Positions 42,101 through 48,100 are shown, counted from the stretch's first letter. The stretch: DNA of 64,000 bases from Alphaproteobacteria bacterium 16-39-46 (GCA_002257235.1 NCGZ01000001.1:6230-70229), one strand, 5' to 3'. Program-made: the numbers.

Positions 42101-45100
42101 AAAGCCATATGGTAAAAGATTATTTAGCAAGATCTTTGACATTTTTTCGGGATGCTCGAGCCCAGTGCGAAGAAGTCTTTGCTGAATGTACAAAAAAAAA
42201 CTGGACAAAGATTGGGCTTGTTGGGTCAGGAGATTTAGCAGACATCGCAACCCTTGTTGCTCAAGGTACAAATATAGAAACTGAGACAATTTCTGTAAAT
42301 AACTCTCTTAAAACATACGACGCTATTCTCATCACAGATGTTATGAATCCCCAAGATACCTATGATGCCCTTAAAAAAAATATTGATTCTCACCAAATTT
42401 TAACGTTGAGACTCTTGCATGTTTCAAGGGAGATACCATGATTCAATGGTGCGTTGCTCATACCCAATCTTTAAAAGAAACCCTTGCTCAACAGCATTTA
42501 CGTGACCAGGGATTTGACGTTTATCTCCCACGATTCAAAAAACTTCGACGTCATGCGCGTAAAACTGATGAGGTTCTTGTCCCTCTCTTCCCAAGATACA
42601 TTTTTGTAGGAATAGACCCAGAGATTTCTCCCTGGCGGAAAATCAATGGAACACGTGGCATCTCTTATTTATTGATGGCCAGCGATAATTGTCCTGCTCT
42701 TGTCTCCACCTCTGTCATTGGCGATTTAAGAGCACAAGAGGTGAGTGACGGAATTCTTCCTGTCAGCAGTCTTGTTTCTTTTCTAAAAGGTGATAAAGTT
42801 CGAATTTTAGAAGGTTCCCTTAAAGATCAAACTGTTGTATTTGAAAAATTAGACGATAAAGGGCGTGTTCAACTCTTGCTTAATCTACTGGGCAAAGATG
42901 TTAAATTTTCACTTTCGTCCTATGCGATTGAAGCCGCATAAAAGAACTTCTTAAGATATTTCTCTTAAATAAAAACAAGAGAAAAATTAAATAATATTAA
43001 CCCCGGGTCTTGGTGCTCATTGCACCCGGACTGCGGCAGCTATGGTGAAGTTTTAGGTCCATGTCAAAAATCAAAATTTCTGTTGTTGGGTGCGGTTATT
43101 GGGGTAAAAACCTCGTTCGAAATTTTTCTGAACTTAGTGTCTTAGCCTCTGTGTGTGACACAAAAGAAGAATTAGCTCGTTCTGCAGCACAAACGTATAA
43201 GGTCCCAAGCCTTAGTTTAGAGCAGGTTCTTAAAAGTGATGTTGATGGTATCGTCATTGCTGCTCCCGCAATTCAACACTATGAACTTGCTCTAAAAGCC
43301 CTTAACGCAGGCAAACATGTTTTTGTTGAAAAGCCTCTCTCTTTAAACGTAAACGAAGCCAAAATTCTTTGTGATCTTTCTCTCCACCTTAACCAACATT
43401 TGATGGTTGGACATTTACTTCAATATCATCCCGCTTTTTTAGAGTTAAAAAAAATTATTTCAAAAGGAATTTTGGGGCAGCTTCAATACATTTACTCGAA
43501 TCGTTTAAATTTAGGGAAATTTCGTACCGAAGAAAATATCCTTTGGAGCTTTGCCCCTCATGATATTTCAATGATTTTAGGTCTTGCAGGAGAATTGCCC
43601 GAGACTGTTTATGCCACGGGTGCTTGTTACCTTAATCCTCACATTCATGATGTGACAACGACCCATTTATCCTTCAAAAATGGCCTTCAATCTCATATTT
43701 TTGTATCTTGGCTTCACCCGTACAAAGAACAAAAACTCGTTGTTGTCGGCGATCGAGGCATGGCTGTTTTTGATGATGGTTTAAGCTGGGATGAAAAATT
43801 AAAGCTCTATCCTCATCAAGTATCTTGGATTGATGGATTTCCTCATCCAAAAAAAGCAGATGTTATCCATATTCCCTTAGAGCCTTCTGAACCTTTAAAA
43901 CTCGAATGTAAACATTTTATTGATTCTATTGAAAACAATAAAAAACCCATAACAGATGGGCTTGAGGGCTTACATGTTTTACAAGTTTTAGAAGCTGCAC
44001 AGCAATCACTTCACTCAAAAAAAACGGTCTTTTTAGAAAAAGAAAACGCTCCTTACTTTGTTCATGATACTGCAATTGTTGATGAGGGATGCCAAATTGG
44101 CAAAGGAACTAAAATTTGGAATCTTTCTCATATTCTTAAGGGAACAATAATTGGAGAAGATTGTATCATTGGACAAAACGTTATGATCGGCCCAGATGTT
44201 ATTGTAGGAAATCGGTGTAAAATTCAAAACAATGTTAGTCTTTATAAGGGCGTGACCCTAGAAGATGGTGTATTTTGTGGCCCTTCATGCGTATTTACGA
44301 ACGTTCACAATCCAAGAGCTGAAATTGAACGCAAAGATGAGTTTCGGCCTACCTATGTAGAACGCGGCGTAACGATCGGAGCAAATGCAACAATTATTTG
44401 TGGCCATCGATTAGGAGCCTATAGTTTGGTTGGCGCTGGTGCAGTTATTACAAAAGACGTCAAACCCCATGCCGTAATGGCTGGAAACCCTGCCAGGCAA
44501 ATTGGGTGGGTCAGCCATGCAGGGGAAAAATTGGAAGATGATTTAGTGTGCTCACGTGAAAGACGTTCCTATTGTCTAAATGAATTCGGAGATTTGATTG
44601 AGATAAATCCCGTTACAAAATATCAAAGAAAATCTTGAATTTAAAAAAAACTATTAAAACAGCCTCTCTGAAGGCGCATTAAGTTATTGGATCGCGAAAT
44701 TAATTGATATTAGCATAAGAGGAAAAAATGGATTTAAGAGGTAAAAAACTGACTGTGGTAGGAGGCGCTGGTCTTATTGGATCTCACACAGTAGATGAGC
44801 TCCTTAAAGAAGATATAAAAGAGCTTATTATTTATGATAATTTTGTACGTGGTACGCAAGATAATCTCGAAGCCGCATTGAAAGATTCGCGTGTCCGCAT
44901 TTTTGAAATTGGCGGCGACATTTGCCAAACAGATATTTTAAATGAAGCCTTAAAAGGAGCCGATGGGGTTTTTCATTTTGCTGCGCTTTGGCTTTTGCAA
45001 TGTCATGATTTTCCAAGATCTGCATTTCACGTAAATGTTGAGGGAACTTTTAATGTTCTTGAAGCTTGTGTAAATCAAGGCGTTAAGAGACTTGTTTATT

Positions 45101-48100
45101 CGTCATCTGCATCTGTCTATGGGGATGCTGTTAGAGATCCTATGGATGAAAATCACCCTTTTAATAATACAAACTTCTATGGTGCCACCAAAATTGCTGG
45201 CGAAGCAATGGCACGAGCTTATTTTCATCGCTACAAACTTCCTTTTGTTGGGTTAAGATATATGAATGTTTATGGCCCGCGCCAAGATTATCGCGGGGCT
45301 TACATTGCTGTTATTATGAAAATGCTTGATAATCTTGATAAAGGTATTGCACCAACTCTTTACGGCGATGGCTCTCAAGCCTATGATTTTGTTTATGTTG
45401 GAGATTGCGCAAAGGCAAACGTATGCGCTATGAAAGCAGATACTGTCGATCACTTTTATAATGTTGGAACTGGAATTCGAACATCTATCAAAGAATTAGC
45501 TGACATCGTTTTAAAAATTACCGCTTCAGATTTAGCAGTTCAGTATGAACCTGCTGGATTAACTTTTGTAAAAAATAGAATTGGGTGTCCCAAAAAAGCA
45601 GAAGCTGAAATTGGCTTTAAAGCATCCGTACTCCTTGAAGAAGGACTTAAAAAATTAATTGAATGGCGTAAAAACCATGTTGATCAAGTTGAAATACGTC
45701 GGAAAAAGGTAATGTAACATGACCTCTATATTAGAAAAAATAAGAAATATACCAATCGCCGTTCCATCTCTTGGAGATGAAGAATGGCAAGCTATGAGAG
45801 AACCTCTCTTAAGTGGTTGGCTGACACAAGGACCTAAAGTTTTACAGTTTGAAGAAGAATTTGCAAAACTTCATGATGTAAAACATGCTCTTGCCGTAAC
45901 ATCTTGTACAACAGGCCTACACCTTGCATTAAAAGCTTTAGGAGTAGGGCCCGGAGATGAGGTTATTATTCCTGCTTTTACATGGGTCGCAACAGCCAAT
46001 GTTGTTTTATATTGCGGTGCAACTCCTATTTTTTGTGACGTAGATGAAGAAACTTTTAATATTAAGGTTTCAGATATCCCATCAAAAATAACAGAACGGA
46101 CAAAAGTAATTATTCCAGTCCACCTTTTTGGTTTATGTGCTGACATTCATGCAATTCGCAGTATCGTTCCATCTCATATAAAAATTCTAGAAGATGCTGC
46201 TTGCGCTGCGGGTGCATCGTATAAAGGTCTTTCTGCTGGATCTCTTGGAGATATGGCCGTCTTTTCTTTTCATCCACGTAAATCTATTACGACAGGTGAA
46301 GGAGGAATGGTGACAACGCAAGATAAAGAACTTAATCGTCTCTCAGAAATTATGCGTAATCATGGAGCTGAAGTTCCCGAAGAAGTACGTCATTCCAGTG
46401 CTAAGCCATACTTACTACCTGACTTTAAAATGTTAGGTTATAATTATCGCATGACAGATCTTCAAGCCGCTGTCGGACTTGTACAGCTTCAAAAGCTTCA
46501 CTCATTCATTAGAGAACGCCAAACTTGGGCCGAATATTATACGGAAAAGCTTCAAGGAATAAGATGGTTAAAACCGCAAGCAACACCTGATTATGCAACA
46601 CAACATGCTTGGCAAGCCTATGTATGCTATGTTGACCCTGATCTTGCACCGATGCCCCGTAATGATATTATGGATATTCTTCAGAAAAAAGGAATTGCGA
46701 CACGCCCAGGAACTCATGCCGTTCATATGCTGAGTTTTTATAAAGATAAATACAGGATTAAGATGGATGATTTTCCGGGGGCAAAAGCATGTGATCACAA
46801 CACCATGGCTATTCCCCTTCATAATAAAATGACCCAAGAAGATTTTGACTATGTGATTGAGGCCTTGAAAGCAATTTAAGTATGTGTGGAATAGCAGGCA
46901 TCTTTAATTTTAATGATCAGACTGTAGCTTATAGTCAACTTAAAGCTATGACGGATGCTATTGCCCATCGTGGACCGGATGGAGAAGGGCACTATATTGA
47001 TGAGTACGTTGGATTAGGGCATAGAAGACTTGCAATTATTGATTTGAGCCCAGCTGGTCATCAACCTATGCAAACACAGGATGGTCGTTTTACCATTACT
47101 TACAATGGAGAAGTATATAATTTTAAAGAGCTCCGCATACAACTTGAGGCCCTTGGGCATCAGTTTCATTCGCATACAGATACAGAAGTAATTTTGAATG
47201 CCTATGCAGAGTGGGGGCATAATTGCCTTAACAAATTTAATGGTATGTTTGCTTTTGCTATTTGGGATAAAAAAGAGAAAAAACTTTTTTTAGCACGAGA
47301 TCGATACGGCATTAAGCCTTTTTATTATTGTAAAGCCGATAGATCGATCATTTTTTCTTCTGAAATAAAAGCAATTGTAGCTTCAGGTTTATACGAATCA
47401 AAGCTCGATAAAGAAGGGCTCGTTGAATATTTAACCTTCCAGAATTTTTTTACTAATAAAACGTTGTTTAAAGATGTAAAGATGCTTATGCCTGGTCATT
47501 ATGCTTATGTTGATGAGAGAGGTAAGTTTGAGAATCATCAGTATTGGGATTTTAATTTTTGTGGGTCTTTAAAAATTTCAGAAGCGGAAGCCATAGAAGA
47601 AACAGATCGTTTATTCAAACAAGCTGTTCAGCGACAACTCATCAGTGATGTTCCGATTAATGCCTATTTAAGTGGCGGCATTGATTCGGGTGCTATTACG
47701 AGAGTGGCAAGTCAATTTTTGCCGCATATGAAAACTTTTACCCTAGGGTTTGATCTGAGCTCAGCGAGTGGATTAGAATTATCATTTGATGAGCGTGCAA
47801 AAGCAGAACATATCTCATATCTTGCAAAAACAGAACATTATGAAATGGTTCTTAAAGCAGGAGATATGGAACGCTGTATGGATAAATATGTATGGCACCT
47901 AGAAGAGCCGCGTGTAGGACAAAGTTATCCTAACTATTATGCAGCAAAACTTGCGAGCAAGTTTGGAAAAGTTGTTTTATCGGGTGTAGGTGGAGATGAG
48001 CTTTTTGGAGGTTATCCATGGAGATATCTTTATAGTGATAAAGCCATAAAGTTTGATGATTTTATTGATACGTATTATTTAAAATGGCAAAGACTTCTTC

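What the first reader, a model, noticed from the sequence alone, without database searches (positions are those of the whole stretch)
43061..46879. 2,3-diacetamido-sugar module with a fused WbpB-like oxidoreductase / WbpD-like N-acetyltransferase
A Gfo/Idh/MocA dehydrogenase, a DegT aminotransferase and a hexapeptide acetyltransferase together are the established route to UDP-2,3-diacetamido-2,3-dideoxy sugars (Pseudomonas WbpB/E/D, Bordetella WlbA/C/B). Here the first and last enzymes of that three-step sequence are fused into one 525-aa polypeptide. This is an uncommon arrangement and may channel the unstable 3-keto intermediate. The downstream WecB-like 2-epimerase matches the WbpI/WlbD step.
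Basis: partly seen in the sequence, partly recalled or inferred. Interest (0 to 1): 0.5.

Follow-up and report, generated by a model that had tools for sequence, protein, structure and literature searches.

The report
Common fused diacetamido-sugar enzyme, partner missing
The 525-residue protein really is a sugar 3-dehydrogenase fused to a sugar N-acetyltransferase for making 2,3-diacetamido sugars. The fusion is common in bacteria (Coxiella burnetii has it), and the neighbouring aminotransferase is not its usual partner but belongs to a second conserved module.

Summary
Window 43061-44638 encodes one 525-aa protein with a Gfo/Idh/MocA dehydrogenase half and a left-handed beta-helix acetyltransferase half. 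The acetyltransferase half is 62% identical to WlbB.

- The fusion is not rare. The 120 closest database clusters are all fused, as are at least 51 clusters at 50% identity and the 80 best species genomes across several phyla, including Coxiella burnetii.
- The dehydrogenase half is closer to GnnA and the archaeal UDP-GlcNAc 3-dehydrogenases than to WbpB/WlbA.
- The gene after the fusion is a GalE-like SDR, not a WecB epimerase. The WbpI/WlbD-like 2-epimerase lies 11 kb downstream at 58093-59148.
- The DegT at 45719-46879 is not the WbpE orthologue. In 53 of 62 informative genomes a WbpE-type DegT directly flanks the fusion. That gene is absent from this whole 73.6-kb contig.

The window's SDR, DegT and AsnB genes form a separate conserved module. 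Elsewhere it always accompanies a complete set of 2,3-diacetamido genes, usually with a second acetyltransferase. I infer, without a test, that it adds a C4 amine and a C6 amide.

Verdict: an ordinary member of a large, annotated but apparently uncharacterised fusion family.

The parts
41845..42441 (+). MarR-family EPS-associated transcriptional regulator, the first gene of the cluster
   Evidence: TIGR04176 MarR_EPS, 62 bits (below its cut-off of 88), and HTH_24. Found upstream of the fusion in 22 of 79 species loci.
42438..42941 (+). RfaH/NusG-family antiterminator
   Evidence: TIGR01955 RfaH, 105 bits (below its cut-off of 144.5), and PF02357 NusG. Found upstream of the fusion in 14 of 79 loci and in Coxiella.
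43061..44035 (+). N-terminal half of the fusion (aa 1-325): Gfo/Idh/MocA NAD-dependent sugar 3-dehydrogenase domain of the GnnA / archaeal UDP-GlcNAc 3-dehydrogenase type
   Evidence: PF01408, PF22725 and PF02894. NF040723, 174 bits. PDB 7bvj GnnA 82 bits against WlbA 3q2k 50 bits. Foldseek TM 0.87-0.90 to GnnA. GxGxxG (G10-G15), E90-K91-P92 and H167-D168 are invariant in 25 homologues. pLDDT is about 90.
44036..44059 (+). Inter-domain linker (about aa 326-333)
   Evidence: The AlphaFold model has pLDDT below 50 for aa 327-342. EKENAPYF (aa 326-333) was one of the six peptide patterns the tool chose for the genome scan, but the 25-homologue consensus is undefined at most of aa 321-329, so conservation of the junction is not established.
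44060..44638 (+). C-terminal half of the fusion (aa 334-525): left-handed beta-helix N-acetyltransferase of the WlbB/WbpD type, plus a tail of about 30 aa
   Evidence: Hexapep, 70.7 bits. 3mqg/3mqh WlbB E=1.9e-61, about 62% identity over 162 aa. N414 and R424 are invariant.
44728..45717 (+). GalE-like SDR (UDP-sugar 4-epimerase or 4-oxidoreductase type), the first gene of the conserved SDR-DegT2-AsnB module
   Evidence: PF01370, 177 bits. Best PDB hits are UDP-GlcNAc 4-epimerases 6dnt, WbgU and WbpP. The motif SSSASVYG...YGATK is seen directly in the sequence. Orthologues at 58-87% identity sit in the same position in L008, L017, L019, L020, L026, L028, L045, L048, Coxiella and Sphingoaurantiacus.
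45719..46879 (+). DegT-family aminotransferase 'DegT2' (perosamine synthetase / ArnB-like). It is not the WbpE orthologue.
   Evidence: 258 bits to 3bn1 and 8sng against 143 bits to WbpE. About 31% identical to the WbpE-type partner. In all 8 species loci plus Coxiella and Sphingoaurantiacus, its orthologue co-occurs with a separate WbpE-type gene.
46882..48732 (+). AsnB-family glutamine-dependent amidotransferase (WbpS-like, presumed uronamide-forming)
   Evidence: Asn_synthase plus GATase_7. TIGR03108, 467 bits, and TIGR01536 above its cut-off. 52-67% identical orthologues follow the SDR, or DegT2 where present, in related loci. The WbpS role comes from PMC7468200.
48729..49751 (+). FemAB-family (VimA-like) transferase
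   Evidence: PF02388 and PF13480. TIGR03019, 92.7 bits, below its cut-off.
49748..50407 (+). NeuD/PglD-family sugar N-acetyltransferase, a candidate second acetyltransferase of the module
   Evidence: TIGR03570, 161.4 bits, at its cut-off of 160.8, and PglD_N. In related loci a different small LbH acetyltransferase of about 184-205 aa holds this position.
58093..59148 (+). Non-hydrolysing UDP-sugar 2-epimerase of the WbpI/WlbD/archaeal type.
   Evidence: PF02350, 338 bits. 4neq 294 bits, Thermus UDP-GlcNAc3NAcA 2-epimerase 8sxv 259 bits, E. coli WecB 1f6d 142 bits.

Best explanation
Window 43061-44638 encodes a genuine bifunctional enzyme of a large, conserved family. Its N-terminal Gfo/Idh/MocA domain oxidises C3 of UDP-GlcNAc, or of UDP-GlcNAcA, using NAD+. 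A separate PLP aminotransferase converts the 3-keto sugar to the 3-amine. The C-terminal WlbB-type beta-helix domain then acetylates that amine with acetyl-CoA, giving UDP-2,3-diacetamido-2,3-dideoxy-glucose or -glucuronate.

The gene sits at the head of a surface-polysaccharide cluster that is Wzx-dependent and associated with RfaH and MarR regulators. The cluster runs from about 41.8 to 67 kb. The WbpI/WlbD-like 2-epimerase at 58093-59148 can convert the product to the manno form.

The adjacent SDR, DegT and AsnB genes (44728-48732) are not the WbpE/WbpI steps. They are a second conserved module that works downstream of the diacetamido sugar. My inference is 4-oxidation or 4-epimerisation, then 4-amination, then 6-amidation, followed by N-acylation through the FemAB-like and PglD-like genes.

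The usual WbpE-type aminotransferase partner is not on this contig. Most likely it is encoded elsewhere in the genome, as it is detached from the fusion in Coxiella. Less likely, DegT2 substitutes for it.

Shown here: domain identities, family size, conserved neighbourhoods, and absence of the partner from the contig. Inferred: substrates, order of reactions, and the product of the second module.
For: Domain identity. Catalytic and NAD-binding motifs are invariant.

Link to a WbpE-type aminotransferase:
- It directly flanks the fusion in 53 of 62 loci with enough sequence.
- That partner scores 354 bits to WbpE.
- Natural three-domain fusions exist in both orders: dehydrogenase-acetyltransferase-DegT (892 aa, two independent contigs) and DegT-dehydrogenase-acetyltransferase (910 aa). 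Dehydrogenase-DegT fusions also exist.

Other pathway links: a UDP-sugar 6-dehydrogenase is directly adjacent in 21 of 79 loci. WbpG/HisH/HisF-type acetamidino genes are adjacent in some loci. The 2-epimerase is of the WlbD type.

Second module:
- FUS-WbpE-SDR-DegT2-AsnB-LbH is collinear in L019, L020, L026 and L028.
- Coxiella has the same gene set, with FUS directly followed by the SDR as in the window and the WbpE-type gene displaced upstream.
- Sphingoaurantiacus has the module after an unfused WbpA-WbpB-WbpD-WbpE set.
- The nearest syntenic relative, L008, differs from the window only by having the ABC transporter and the WbpE-type gene.
Against: - No biochemical data exist for any member of the fused family, as far as my literature searches reached.
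- The N-half scores below the curated cut-off of the only named 3-dehydrogenase family (174 against 450 bits), so its substrate is inferred from context.
- No WbpE-type aminotransferase and no 6-dehydrogenase are on the 73.6-kb contig. The pathway as encoded here is therefore incomplete, and the uronate/uronamide part is unsupported in this genome.
- The SDR has an epimerase-type active-site motif. That does not obviously give a free 4-keto substrate for DegT2.
- A search for the partner found no hit named for this MAG among the best 120.
Confidence: 0.7

Rival explanations
1. The fusion, the DegT at 45719-46879 and the WecB-like epimerase form a self-contained WbpB/E/D/I-type module, with this DegT performing the C3 transamination.
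For: It is the only DegT on the contig and lies 1 kb from the fusion in the same operon-like array. Regiospecificity in the DegT family is not reliably predicted from sequence (general knowledge). 3-aminotransferases such as QdtB still score 186 bits.
Against: It is about 31% identical to the WbpE-type partner and scores 143 bits to WbpE against 258 to the 4-aminotransferases Per and ArnB. In 10 of 10 other genomes its orthologue coexists with a separate WbpE-type gene, so it does not normally replace that gene. It always travels with the SDR and AsnB genes.
Confidence: 0.17
2. The diacetamido branch is non-functional in this organism. The aminotransferase partner and the ABC transporter were deleted, and the fusion gene is a not-yet-decayed relic or has been re-purposed.
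For: Relative to the nearest syntenic locus, L008, exactly two genes flanking the fusion are missing. Among the species loci sampled, the window is the only one with DegT2 but no WbpE-type gene.
Against: The ORF is full length. It keeps every residue that is invariant across the 25-sequence alignment, which includes the window's own sequence, and is 73-79% identical to the best 120 homologues. Coxiella also has the fusion directly followed by the SDR, with the partner located elsewhere, so detachment need not mean loss. The WlbD-type 2-epimerase is retained.
Confidence: 0.1
3. The fusion acts on a different nucleotide sugar, for example a dTDP- or GDP-linked 3-keto-6-deoxyhexose, or works as a ketoreductase plus acetyltransferase. 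It would then be unrelated to 2,3-diacetamido sugars.
For: The N-half is below every curated family cut-off. The C-half also matches the dTDP-sugar 3-N-acetyltransferases WxcM-like 4mzu (118 bits) and QdtC (62 bits).
Against: The C-half is far closer to WlbB (210 bits, 62% identity) than to the dTDP-sugar enzymes. The conserved partner is WbpE-like. UDP-HexNAc 6-dehydrogenase and WlbD-type epimerase genes recur in the neighbourhoods. No dTDP-glucose pathway genes (RmlA/RmlB) turned up among the cluster ORFs scanned.
Confidence: 0.03

Closest known systems
WlbB (Bordetella petrii, PDB 3MQG/3MQH) and WbpD (Pseudomonas aeruginosa): UDP-GlcNAc3NA 3-N-acetyltransferases
   Same: The C-terminal half (aa 334-495) is about 62% identical over 162 residues (E=2e-61). 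It has the same left-handed beta-helix repeat architecture. The Asn of the FTN motif and the Arg of the IERK motif are conserved.
   Different: Here the domain is the C-terminal half of a 525-aa protein, not a free-standing protein of about 190 aa. Whether the substrate carries a C6 carboxylate is unknown.
GnnA (Acidithiobacillus ferrooxidans, PDB 7BVJ/7BVK) and the archaeal UDP-GlcNAc 3-dehydrogenase family NF040723. From my own knowledge, the characterised member is MMP0352 of Methanococcus maripaludis.
   Same: These are the best sequence and structure matches for the N-half (82 bits; TM 0.87-0.90; NF040723 174 bits). Same fold, EKP lysine and H-D motif. They presumably share the same chemistry, NAD+-dependent oxidation of C3 of UDP-GlcNAc.
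   Different: Identity is only about 23-30%, and the score is below the family's curated cut-off. GnnA feeds lipid A (GlcN3N) synthesis and is not fused to an acetyltransferase.
WbpB/WlbA (P. aeruginosa, B. pertussis, C. violaceum, T. thermophilus): UDP-GlcNAcA 3-dehydrogenases that recycle bound NADH with alpha-ketoglutarate
   Same: Same superfamily and the same position in the pathway. They are followed by WbpE-type and WbpD-type enzymes.
   Different: These are distant relatives of the N-half: 50 and 32 bits, less than some inositol dehydrogenases. An unfused WbpB-type gene in Sphingoaurantiacus is only 23% identical to the N-half. Dependence on alpha-ketoglutarate cannot be assessed here.
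Wbp/Vim pathway of Porphyromonas gingivalis (WbpA/B/E/D + VimE + VimA + WbpS), PMC7468200
   Same: The cluster combines diacetamido-sugar genes with two AsnB/WbpS-like amidotransferases, two FemAB/VimA-like transferases and a weak polysaccharide-deacetylase-like gene.
   Different: The dehydrogenase and acetyltransferase are fused. WbpA and the WbpE type are missing from the contig. An extra SDR plus DegT2 pair is present. No T9SS context.
Coxiella burnetii LPS-region cassette (locus L087)
   Same: The same genes occur, though RfaH and MarR are in the opposite order: RfaH, MarR, fusion (61.5% identity), SDR (75%), DegT2 (69%), AsnB (63%). The fusion is directly followed by the SDR, as in the window.
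   Different: Coxiella keeps a WbpE-type DegT just upstream of RfaH. After AsnB it has a small LbH acetyltransferase and an ABC transporter, where the window has the FemAB and PglD-like genes.

Membership tests
WlbB/WbpD UDP-GlcNAc3N(A) N-acetyltransferase (C-half) | Left-handed beta-helix built from hexapeptide repeats | tested here: met
   PF00132, 70.7 bits, and PF14602. The AlphaFold model shows short regularly spaced strands but has low confidence in this half.
WlbB/WbpD UDP-GlcNAc3N(A) N-acetyltransferase (C-half) | Closest characterised relative is WlbB/WbpD rather than another LbH acyltransferase | tested here: met
   3mqg 210 bits and 62% identity, against 118 bits for the next hit (4mzu) and 37 bits for maltose acetyltransferase.
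WlbB/WbpD UDP-GlcNAc3N(A) N-acetyltransferase (C-half) | Acetyl-CoA-dependent acetylation of the C3 amine of UDP-GlcNAc3N(A) | not testable with these tools
   Needs an enzyme assay.
WbpB/WlbA UDP-GlcNAcA 3-dehydrogenase (N-half) | Gfo/Idh/MocA two-domain fold with the GxGxxG and EKP motifs | tested here: met
   PF01408, PF22725 and PF02894. G10-G15 and E90-K91-P92 are invariant. pLDDT is about 90 and Foldseek probability is 1.0.
WbpB/WlbA UDP-GlcNAcA 3-dehydrogenase (N-half) | Orthology-level similarity to WbpB/WlbA | tested here: not met
   WlbA 3q2k scores 50 bits and 3q2i 32 bits. No other chain labelled WbpB or WlbA appears among the 60 listed. GnnA scores 82 bits and inositol dehydrogenase 4hkt 61 bits.
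WbpB/WlbA UDP-GlcNAcA 3-dehydrogenase (N-half) | Recycling of tightly bound NADH by alpha-ketoglutarate | not testable with these tools
   Needs kinetics.
GnnA / archaeal UDP-GlcNAc 3-dehydrogenase (NF040723) (N-half) | Score above the curated family cut-off | tested here: not met
   It is the best NCBIfam hit, but at 173.9 bits against a cut-off of 450. GnnA is the best structural match (TM 0.87-0.90). So it resembles this family but is not a member by the curated criterion.
WbpE/WlbC UDP-3-keto-GlcNAcA aminotransferase (DegT at 45719-46879) | DegT/DnrJ/EryC1 PLP fold | tested here: met
   PF01041, 396.6 bits.
WbpE/WlbC UDP-3-keto-GlcNAcA aminotransferase (DegT at 45719-46879) | Orthology to WbpE and to the DegT that is conserved next to the fusion | tested here: not met
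   143 bits to WbpE against 258 to Per and ArnB. 31-32% identity to the WbpE-type partner, which itself scores 354 bits to WbpE. It coexists with a WbpE-type gene in 10 of 10 other genomes.
WbpI/WlbD UDP-GlcNAc3NAcA 2-epimerase (58093-59148) | Epimerase_2 fold, and closer to the diacetamido-sugar 2-epimerases than to the enterobacterial WecB | tested here: met
   PF02350, 338 bits. 8sxv 259 bits and 4neq 294 bits against 1f6d 142 bits. The gene lies outside the finding's coordinates.
WbpA UDP-GlcNAc 6-dehydrogenase | Presence of a UDPG_MGDP_dh-family gene in the module | tested here: not met
   None was found among the cluster and larger window ORFs scanned against Pfam, in a catalytic-motif scan of the window, or among the called genes of the contig flanks. 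One is present next to the fusion in 21 of 79 other genomes.

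The most novel reading that the evidence does not exclude
The conserved six-enzyme cassette consists of the dehydrogenase::acetyltransferase fusion, a WbpE-type aminotransferase, a GalE-like SDR, a second ArnB/Per-like aminotransferase, an AsnB amidotransferase and a second small acetyltransferase. It is shared by Holosporales-like bacteria, several other alphaproteobacteria and Coxiella burnetii. It may encode an undescribed route to a 2,3,4-triamino-2,3,4-trideoxy-hexuronamide, a tri-N-acylated sugar. 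In this window the cassette is a variant in which the 4-amine is aminoacylated or acetylated by the FemAB-like and PglD-like enzymes. The fusion, together with the naturally occurring triple fusions, would point to a physical dehydrogenase-aminotransferase-acetyltransferase complex that pulls the unfavourable C3 oxidation forward.
Probability: 0.25. Interest if true: 0.55.

Novelty: new member of a known kind. Interest (0 to 1): 0.27.

Why it matters
As a fusion it matters little. The architecture is common and already carries pathway-level annotation in public databases.

Two things have some value:
- The correction to the module. The neighbouring DegT is a paralogue from a second module, and the real WbpE-type partner is missing from the contig. 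Annotating this cluster by gene-family name alone would therefore reconstruct the wrong pathway.
- The conserved extension SDR-DegT2-AsnB-acetyltransferase is shared with the LPS region of Coxiella burnetii. As far as I recall, that organism's O-antigen chemistry is not fully solved. The cassette gives a concrete, testable candidate for a tri-amino uronamide sugar.

The fused family and its triple-fusion relatives are also convenient material for studying how the thermodynamically unfavourable C3 oxidation is coupled to transamination and acetylation.

Tried and rejected
- Artefactual fusion (frameshift or merged gene call). Rejected, because hundreds of independent assemblies and isolate genomes carry the same single ORF.
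Rejected.
- SDR as a 4,6-dehydratase or an ArnA-like decarboxylase. Considered unlikely, because the active-site stretch is SSSASVYG (GalE-like) rather than TDE or TSE. This rests on reading the sequence and on my own knowledge, not on a test.
- A WbpE-type gene hidden elsewhere in the window or contig. tblastn over the 64 kb found only the DegT2 locus, at 32% identity. The 6.2 kb upstream and 4.2 kb downstream of the window hold none.
- Looking for this MAG's WbpE-type protein by homology search. No hit named for the MAG appeared among the best 120. This is inconclusive, because most entries are unnamed.
- RfaH ops element upstream of the fusion. No match within 2 mismatches in the leader. 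Promoter and terminator scans were at background level.
- Literature on the fusion. Searches on WbpB/WbpD/fusion/bifunctional/fused terms returned nothing relevant. PDB codes 8VR2, 8VR3 and 8VR5 could not be traced to a paper. The WlbB and Larkin-Imperiali papers are not held. The Coxiella phase-variation paper does not discuss these genes.
- Monophyly of the fusion. A rough NJ tree of N-domains interleaves fused and free-standing forms, with about 20 state changes. This suggests repeated fusion and fission, but the tree is too crude to rely on.
- The AlphaFold model. It is good for the N-domain but poor for the beta-helix and linker, so it says nothing about inter-domain packing.

Full report
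**What is in the sequence.**
The finding's span (43061-46879, + strand) holds three ORFs, not two functional units plus an epimerase:
- 43061-44638, 525 aa.
- 44728-45717, 329 aa.
- 45719-46879, 386 aa.

The 525-aa protein has a Gfo/Idh/MocA NAD-binding domain (aa 4-118) and C-terminal domains (aa 126-323). Hexapeptide repeats follow from aa 343. The third ORF is a DegT/DnrJ/EryC1 aminotransferase (396.6 bits). The middle ORF is an NAD-dependent SDR of the GalE type (PF01370, 177 bits), not a WecB-like epimerase. Its best solved relatives are the UDP-GlcNAc 4-epimerases 6dnt, WbgU and WbpP.

The only WecB-family gene is at 58093-59148. The observation of a fusion and a DegT is therefore confirmed. 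The epimerase lies 11 kb outside the stated coordinates.

**Wider context.**
The genes lie in one long + strand array from about 41.8 to 67 kb. In order:
- MarR-type EPS regulator (41845), then RfaH (42438).
- The fusion, the SDR and the DegT.
- AsnB-type amidotransferase (46882).
- FemAB/VimA-like transferase (48729).
- PglD/NeuD-type acetyltransferase (49748).
- Methyltransferases, glycosyltransferases, a second FemAB-like gene and a Wzx flippase (54010).
- The 2-epimerase (58093), a weak polysaccharide-deacetylase-like gene, a second AsnB (61318), and two further glycosyltransferases beyond the window.

This is a surface-polysaccharide cluster that is Wzx-dependent and associated with RfaH. 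The window is identical to a contig of the MAG 'Alphaproteobacteria bacterium 16-39-46'.

**The two halves.**
The C-half (aa 334-495) matches WlbB of Bordetella petrii (3mqg/3mqh) at E=1.9e-61, with about 62% identity over 162 residues. That is far above any other beta-helix acyltransferase.

The N-half is not a close relative of WbpB/WlbA:
- It scores 82-84 bits to 3c1a and to 7bvj. Foldseek identifies 7bvj as GnnA, the UDP-GlcNAc 3-dehydrogenase of A. ferrooxidans.
- It scores 61 bits to an inositol dehydrogenase.
- It scores only 50 and 32 bits to the WlbA structures 3q2k and 3q2i.
- Its best curated family is the archaeal UDP-GlcNAc 3-dehydrogenase NF040723 (174 bits, cut-off 450). Inositol 2-dehydrogenase scores 114 bits.

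An AlphaFold model is confident for the N-domain (pLDDT about 90), low for the linker (aa 327-342) and poor for the beta-helix. GnnA gives the highest target-normalised TM-score (0.87-0.90). WlbA gives 0.72-0.75.

In 25 homologues the following are invariant:
- The GxGxxG motif, E90-K91-P92 and H167-D168.
- In the C-half, N414 and R424. These align with an Asn and an Arg of WlbB that I recall as functionally important. That recollection is memory, not a test.

However, 'WbpB-like' should read 'GnnA/archaeal-type 3-dehydrogenase-like'.

**How common the fusion is.**
The best 120 clusters are all 514-537 aa, 73-100% identical (the 100% hit is the window's own protein), and contain both halves.
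- In a library clustered at 50% identity, 51 of the best 150 representatives are complete fusions and about 15 more are fragments of fusions. The remainder are mostly free-standing dehydrogenases at 39-66% identity.
The best 80 all cover both halves at 55-79% identity.
- Taxa include Holospora, Odyssella, Finniella, Coxiellaceae, Rickettsiales, Azospirillum soli, Magnetospirillum moscoviense, Micavibrio aeruginosavorus, Microvirga rosea, Chelatococcus, Desulfobacterales, Myxococcota, Chloroflexota, Nitrospiraceae and Acidimicrobiia.
- Coxiella burnetii has it too (61.5% identity).
- JGI already names these proteins 'UDP-2-acetamido-3-amino-2,3-dideoxy-glucuronate N-acetyltransferase'. NCBI calls them 'Gfo/Idh/MocA family oxidoreductase'.

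'Uncommon arrangement' is therefore not supported. I found no paper that describes or characterises the fusion. That is a limited search, not proof of absence.

**The fusion's real partner.**
In 79 species loci, a DegT of one particular type lies immediately beside the fusion, usually about 1.55 kb downstream of its start. This holds in 61 loci overall, and in 53 of the 62 that have at least 3 kb of downstream sequence. That DegT is strongly WbpE-like (354 bits to 3nu7). It is as conserved as the fusion itself (76-88% among the best 120).

Natural multi-domain proteins tie the three activities together:
- Dehydrogenase-acetyltransferase-DegT (892 and 897 aa, on two contigs).
- DegT-dehydrogenase-acetyltransferase (910 aa).
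- Dehydrogenase-DegT (713 and 775 aa).

A UDP-sugar 6-dehydrogenase, confirmed by Pfam for one example, is directly adjacent in 21 of 79 loci. WbpG/HisH/HisF-type genes are adjacent in a few loci. From my own knowledge, those genes make the acetamidino group.

Together this supports the assignment of the fused family to the 2,3-diacetamido-sugar pathway.

**The window's DegT is a different gene.**
- The DegT at 45719-46879 is only 31-32% identical to the WbpE-type partner and to the DegT domains of the triple fusions.
- It scores 258 bits to perosamine synthetase and ArnB, but 143 bits to WbpE.
- NCBI itself names it 'perosamine synthetase'.
- Its orthologues (54-85% identity) occur in L008, L019, L020, L026, L028, L045, L048 and L068. 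Every one of those loci also has a WbpE-type gene. In six of the eight they follow an SDR orthologous to 44728-45717; in L048 the called ORF overlaps that SDR, and in L068 the gene lies 7 kb further on.
- An AsnB orthologous to 46882-48732 follows them in L019, L020, L026, L028 and L048. L008 and L045 run out of sequence at that point.
- In L019, L020, L026 and L028 the order is fusion, WbpE-type, SDR, DegT2, AsnB, then a small beta-helix acetyltransferase.
- Sphingoaurantiacus capsulatus has the same SDR-DegT2-(methyltransferase)-AsnB-acetyltransferase set behind an unfused 6-dehydrogenase/WbpB-type/WbpD-type/WbpE-type set. Its dehydrogenase is only 23% identical to the fusion's N-half.

The SDR-DegT2-AsnB module therefore accompanies complete diacetamido pathways of both kinds. 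It works in addition to the WbpE step, not instead of it.

**What is missing here.**
The closest syntenic relative, L008, is collinear with the window from MarR to DegT2. The difference is that L008 has an ABC transporter between RfaH and the fusion, and has the WbpE-type gene plus a small glyoxalase-family ORF between the fusion and the SDR. In the window, 89 bp separate the fusion from the SDR.

tblastn finds no WbpE-type gene anywhere in the 64 kb. The rest of the 73.6-kb contig holds none either.

Coxiella burnetii shows that the fusion-SDR junction is not unique. There the order is WbpE-type DegT, RfaH, MarR, fusion, SDR (75% identity), DegT2 (69%), AsnB (63%), beta-helix acetyltransferase, ABC transporter. 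The partner can therefore be detached from the fusion. In this MAG it is most likely encoded elsewhere. Substitution by DegT2 and loss of the pathway remain possible.

**Most likely mechanism.**
Steps 1-3 below rest on domain homology and conserved context. The chemistry itself is inferred.
1. The N-domain oxidises C3 of UDP-GlcNAc or UDP-GlcNAcA with NAD+.
2. A WbpE-type PLP enzyme transaminates the keto sugar.
3. The C-domain acetylates the 3-amine.

The WlbD/archaeal-type 2-epimerase at 58093-59148 scores 259 bits to the Thermus UDP-GlcNAc3NAcA 2-epimerase, 294 bits to the M. jannaschii enzyme and 142 bits to E. coli WecB. It can give the manno epimer.

The cassette elsewhere contains two aminotransferases, two acetyltransferases, one SDR and one amidotransferase. 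I infer that the second module oxidises or epimerises C4, aminates it, N-acylates it, and amidates C6. That would give a 2,3,4-triamino-hexuronamide-type sugar. This is a hypothesis, with three weaknesses:
- The SDR has an epimerase-type motif.
- No 6-dehydrogenase is on the contig.
- Nothing has been assayed.

A more defensible rationale is fixed stoichiometry and a thermodynamic pull on an unfavourable oxidation. From my own knowledge, the published WbpB/WbpE and GnnA/GnnB work found that the dehydrogenase gives detectable product only when coupled to the transaminase. The triple fusions are compatible with a three-enzyme complex.

**Comparison with known systems, and novelty.**
- The protein works like WbpB plus WbpD (or WlbA plus WlbB).
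- By sequence it is a member of the WlbB/WbpD family in its C-half only.
- Its N-half fails the WbpB/WlbA similarity test. It falls below the curated cut-off of the archaeal 3-dehydrogenase family, which it resembles most.
- The cluster also resembles the Wbp/Vim pathway of P. gingivalis in carrying FemAB/VimA-like, AsnB/WbpS-like and deacetylase-like genes (PMC7468200).

Overall this is a new member of a known, very populous and already annotated kind. The fusion as such is of low interest. The mis-assigned aminotransferase and the conserved second module shared with Coxiella are the only points that a specialist might find worth following up.

Noticed in passing
Proteins P0122/P0391 (892 and 897 aa), P0152 (910 aa), P0227 (713 aa), P0257 (775 aa) from metagenomes: Natural triple fusions occur in both orders: dehydrogenase-acetyltransferase-DegT and DegT-dehydrogenase-acetyltransferase. 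Dehydrogenase-DegT double fusions also occur. They act as 'Rosetta stone' links joining all three steps of the pathway.
   Followed up: partly
L087 (Coxiella burnetii, GCA_025990495.1) 5134-15424: C. burnetii carries WbpE-type DegT, RfaH, MarR, the fusion, SDR, DegT2, AsnB, a small LbH acetyltransferase and an ABC transporter. This is the same gene set as the window's module, with RfaH and MarR in the opposite order. Which LPS sugar it makes is not addressed in the one Coxiella paper I could read.
   Followed up: partly
P0174/P0393 (Amorphus orientalis WP_306886032.1, 316 aa) and P0183: Free-standing Gfo/Idh/MocA proteins with no acetyltransferase domain are named 'UDP-2-acetamido-3-amino-2,3-dideoxy-glucuronate N-acetyltransferase' in UniRef and JGI. 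The name was apparently propagated from the fused family.
   Followed up: no
window 48729-49751, 53253-54191, 46882-48732, 61318-63165, 59152-60024: The cluster has two FemAB/VimA-like genes, two AsnB/WbpS-like amidotransferases and a weak polysaccharide-deacetylase-like gene. This is reminiscent of the Wbp/Vim route to N-aminoacyl diamino-uronamides in Porphyromonas (PMC7468200).
   Followed up: partly
window 48000-56000: G+C falls to 0.30-0.33 in the middle of the cluster, against 0.39-0.43 nearby. GC skew is positive across 44-54 kb and negative over most of the rest of the window. This is compatible with a horizontally exchanged serotype-specific core (flippase, glycosyltransferases, methyltransferases).
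   Followed up: no
L001 14846-16080 (about 3-4 kb beyond the window's end): An AbiEi/AbiEii toxin-antitoxin pair sits directly after the last glycosyltransferase and marks the end of the polysaccharide cluster.
   Followed up: no
window 2867-4887 and 17014-18249: Upstream of the cluster lie a YhcG/DUF1016 PDDEXK nuclease gene, a phage-type integrase (4222-4887) and a DUF4143 AAA ATPase. These are possible remnants of mobile elements.
   Followed up: no
L008 12713-13105: In the nearest syntenic relative, a 130-aa glyoxalase/bleomycin-resistance-fold ORF sits between the WbpE-type DegT and the SDR. It is absent from the window, along with the DegT.
   Followed up: no
N-domain tree of representatives P0121-P0270: Fused and free-standing dehydrogenases interleave in a rough NJ tree, with about 20 state changes. 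This suggests repeated fusion and fission rather than one ancient event.
   Followed up: partly
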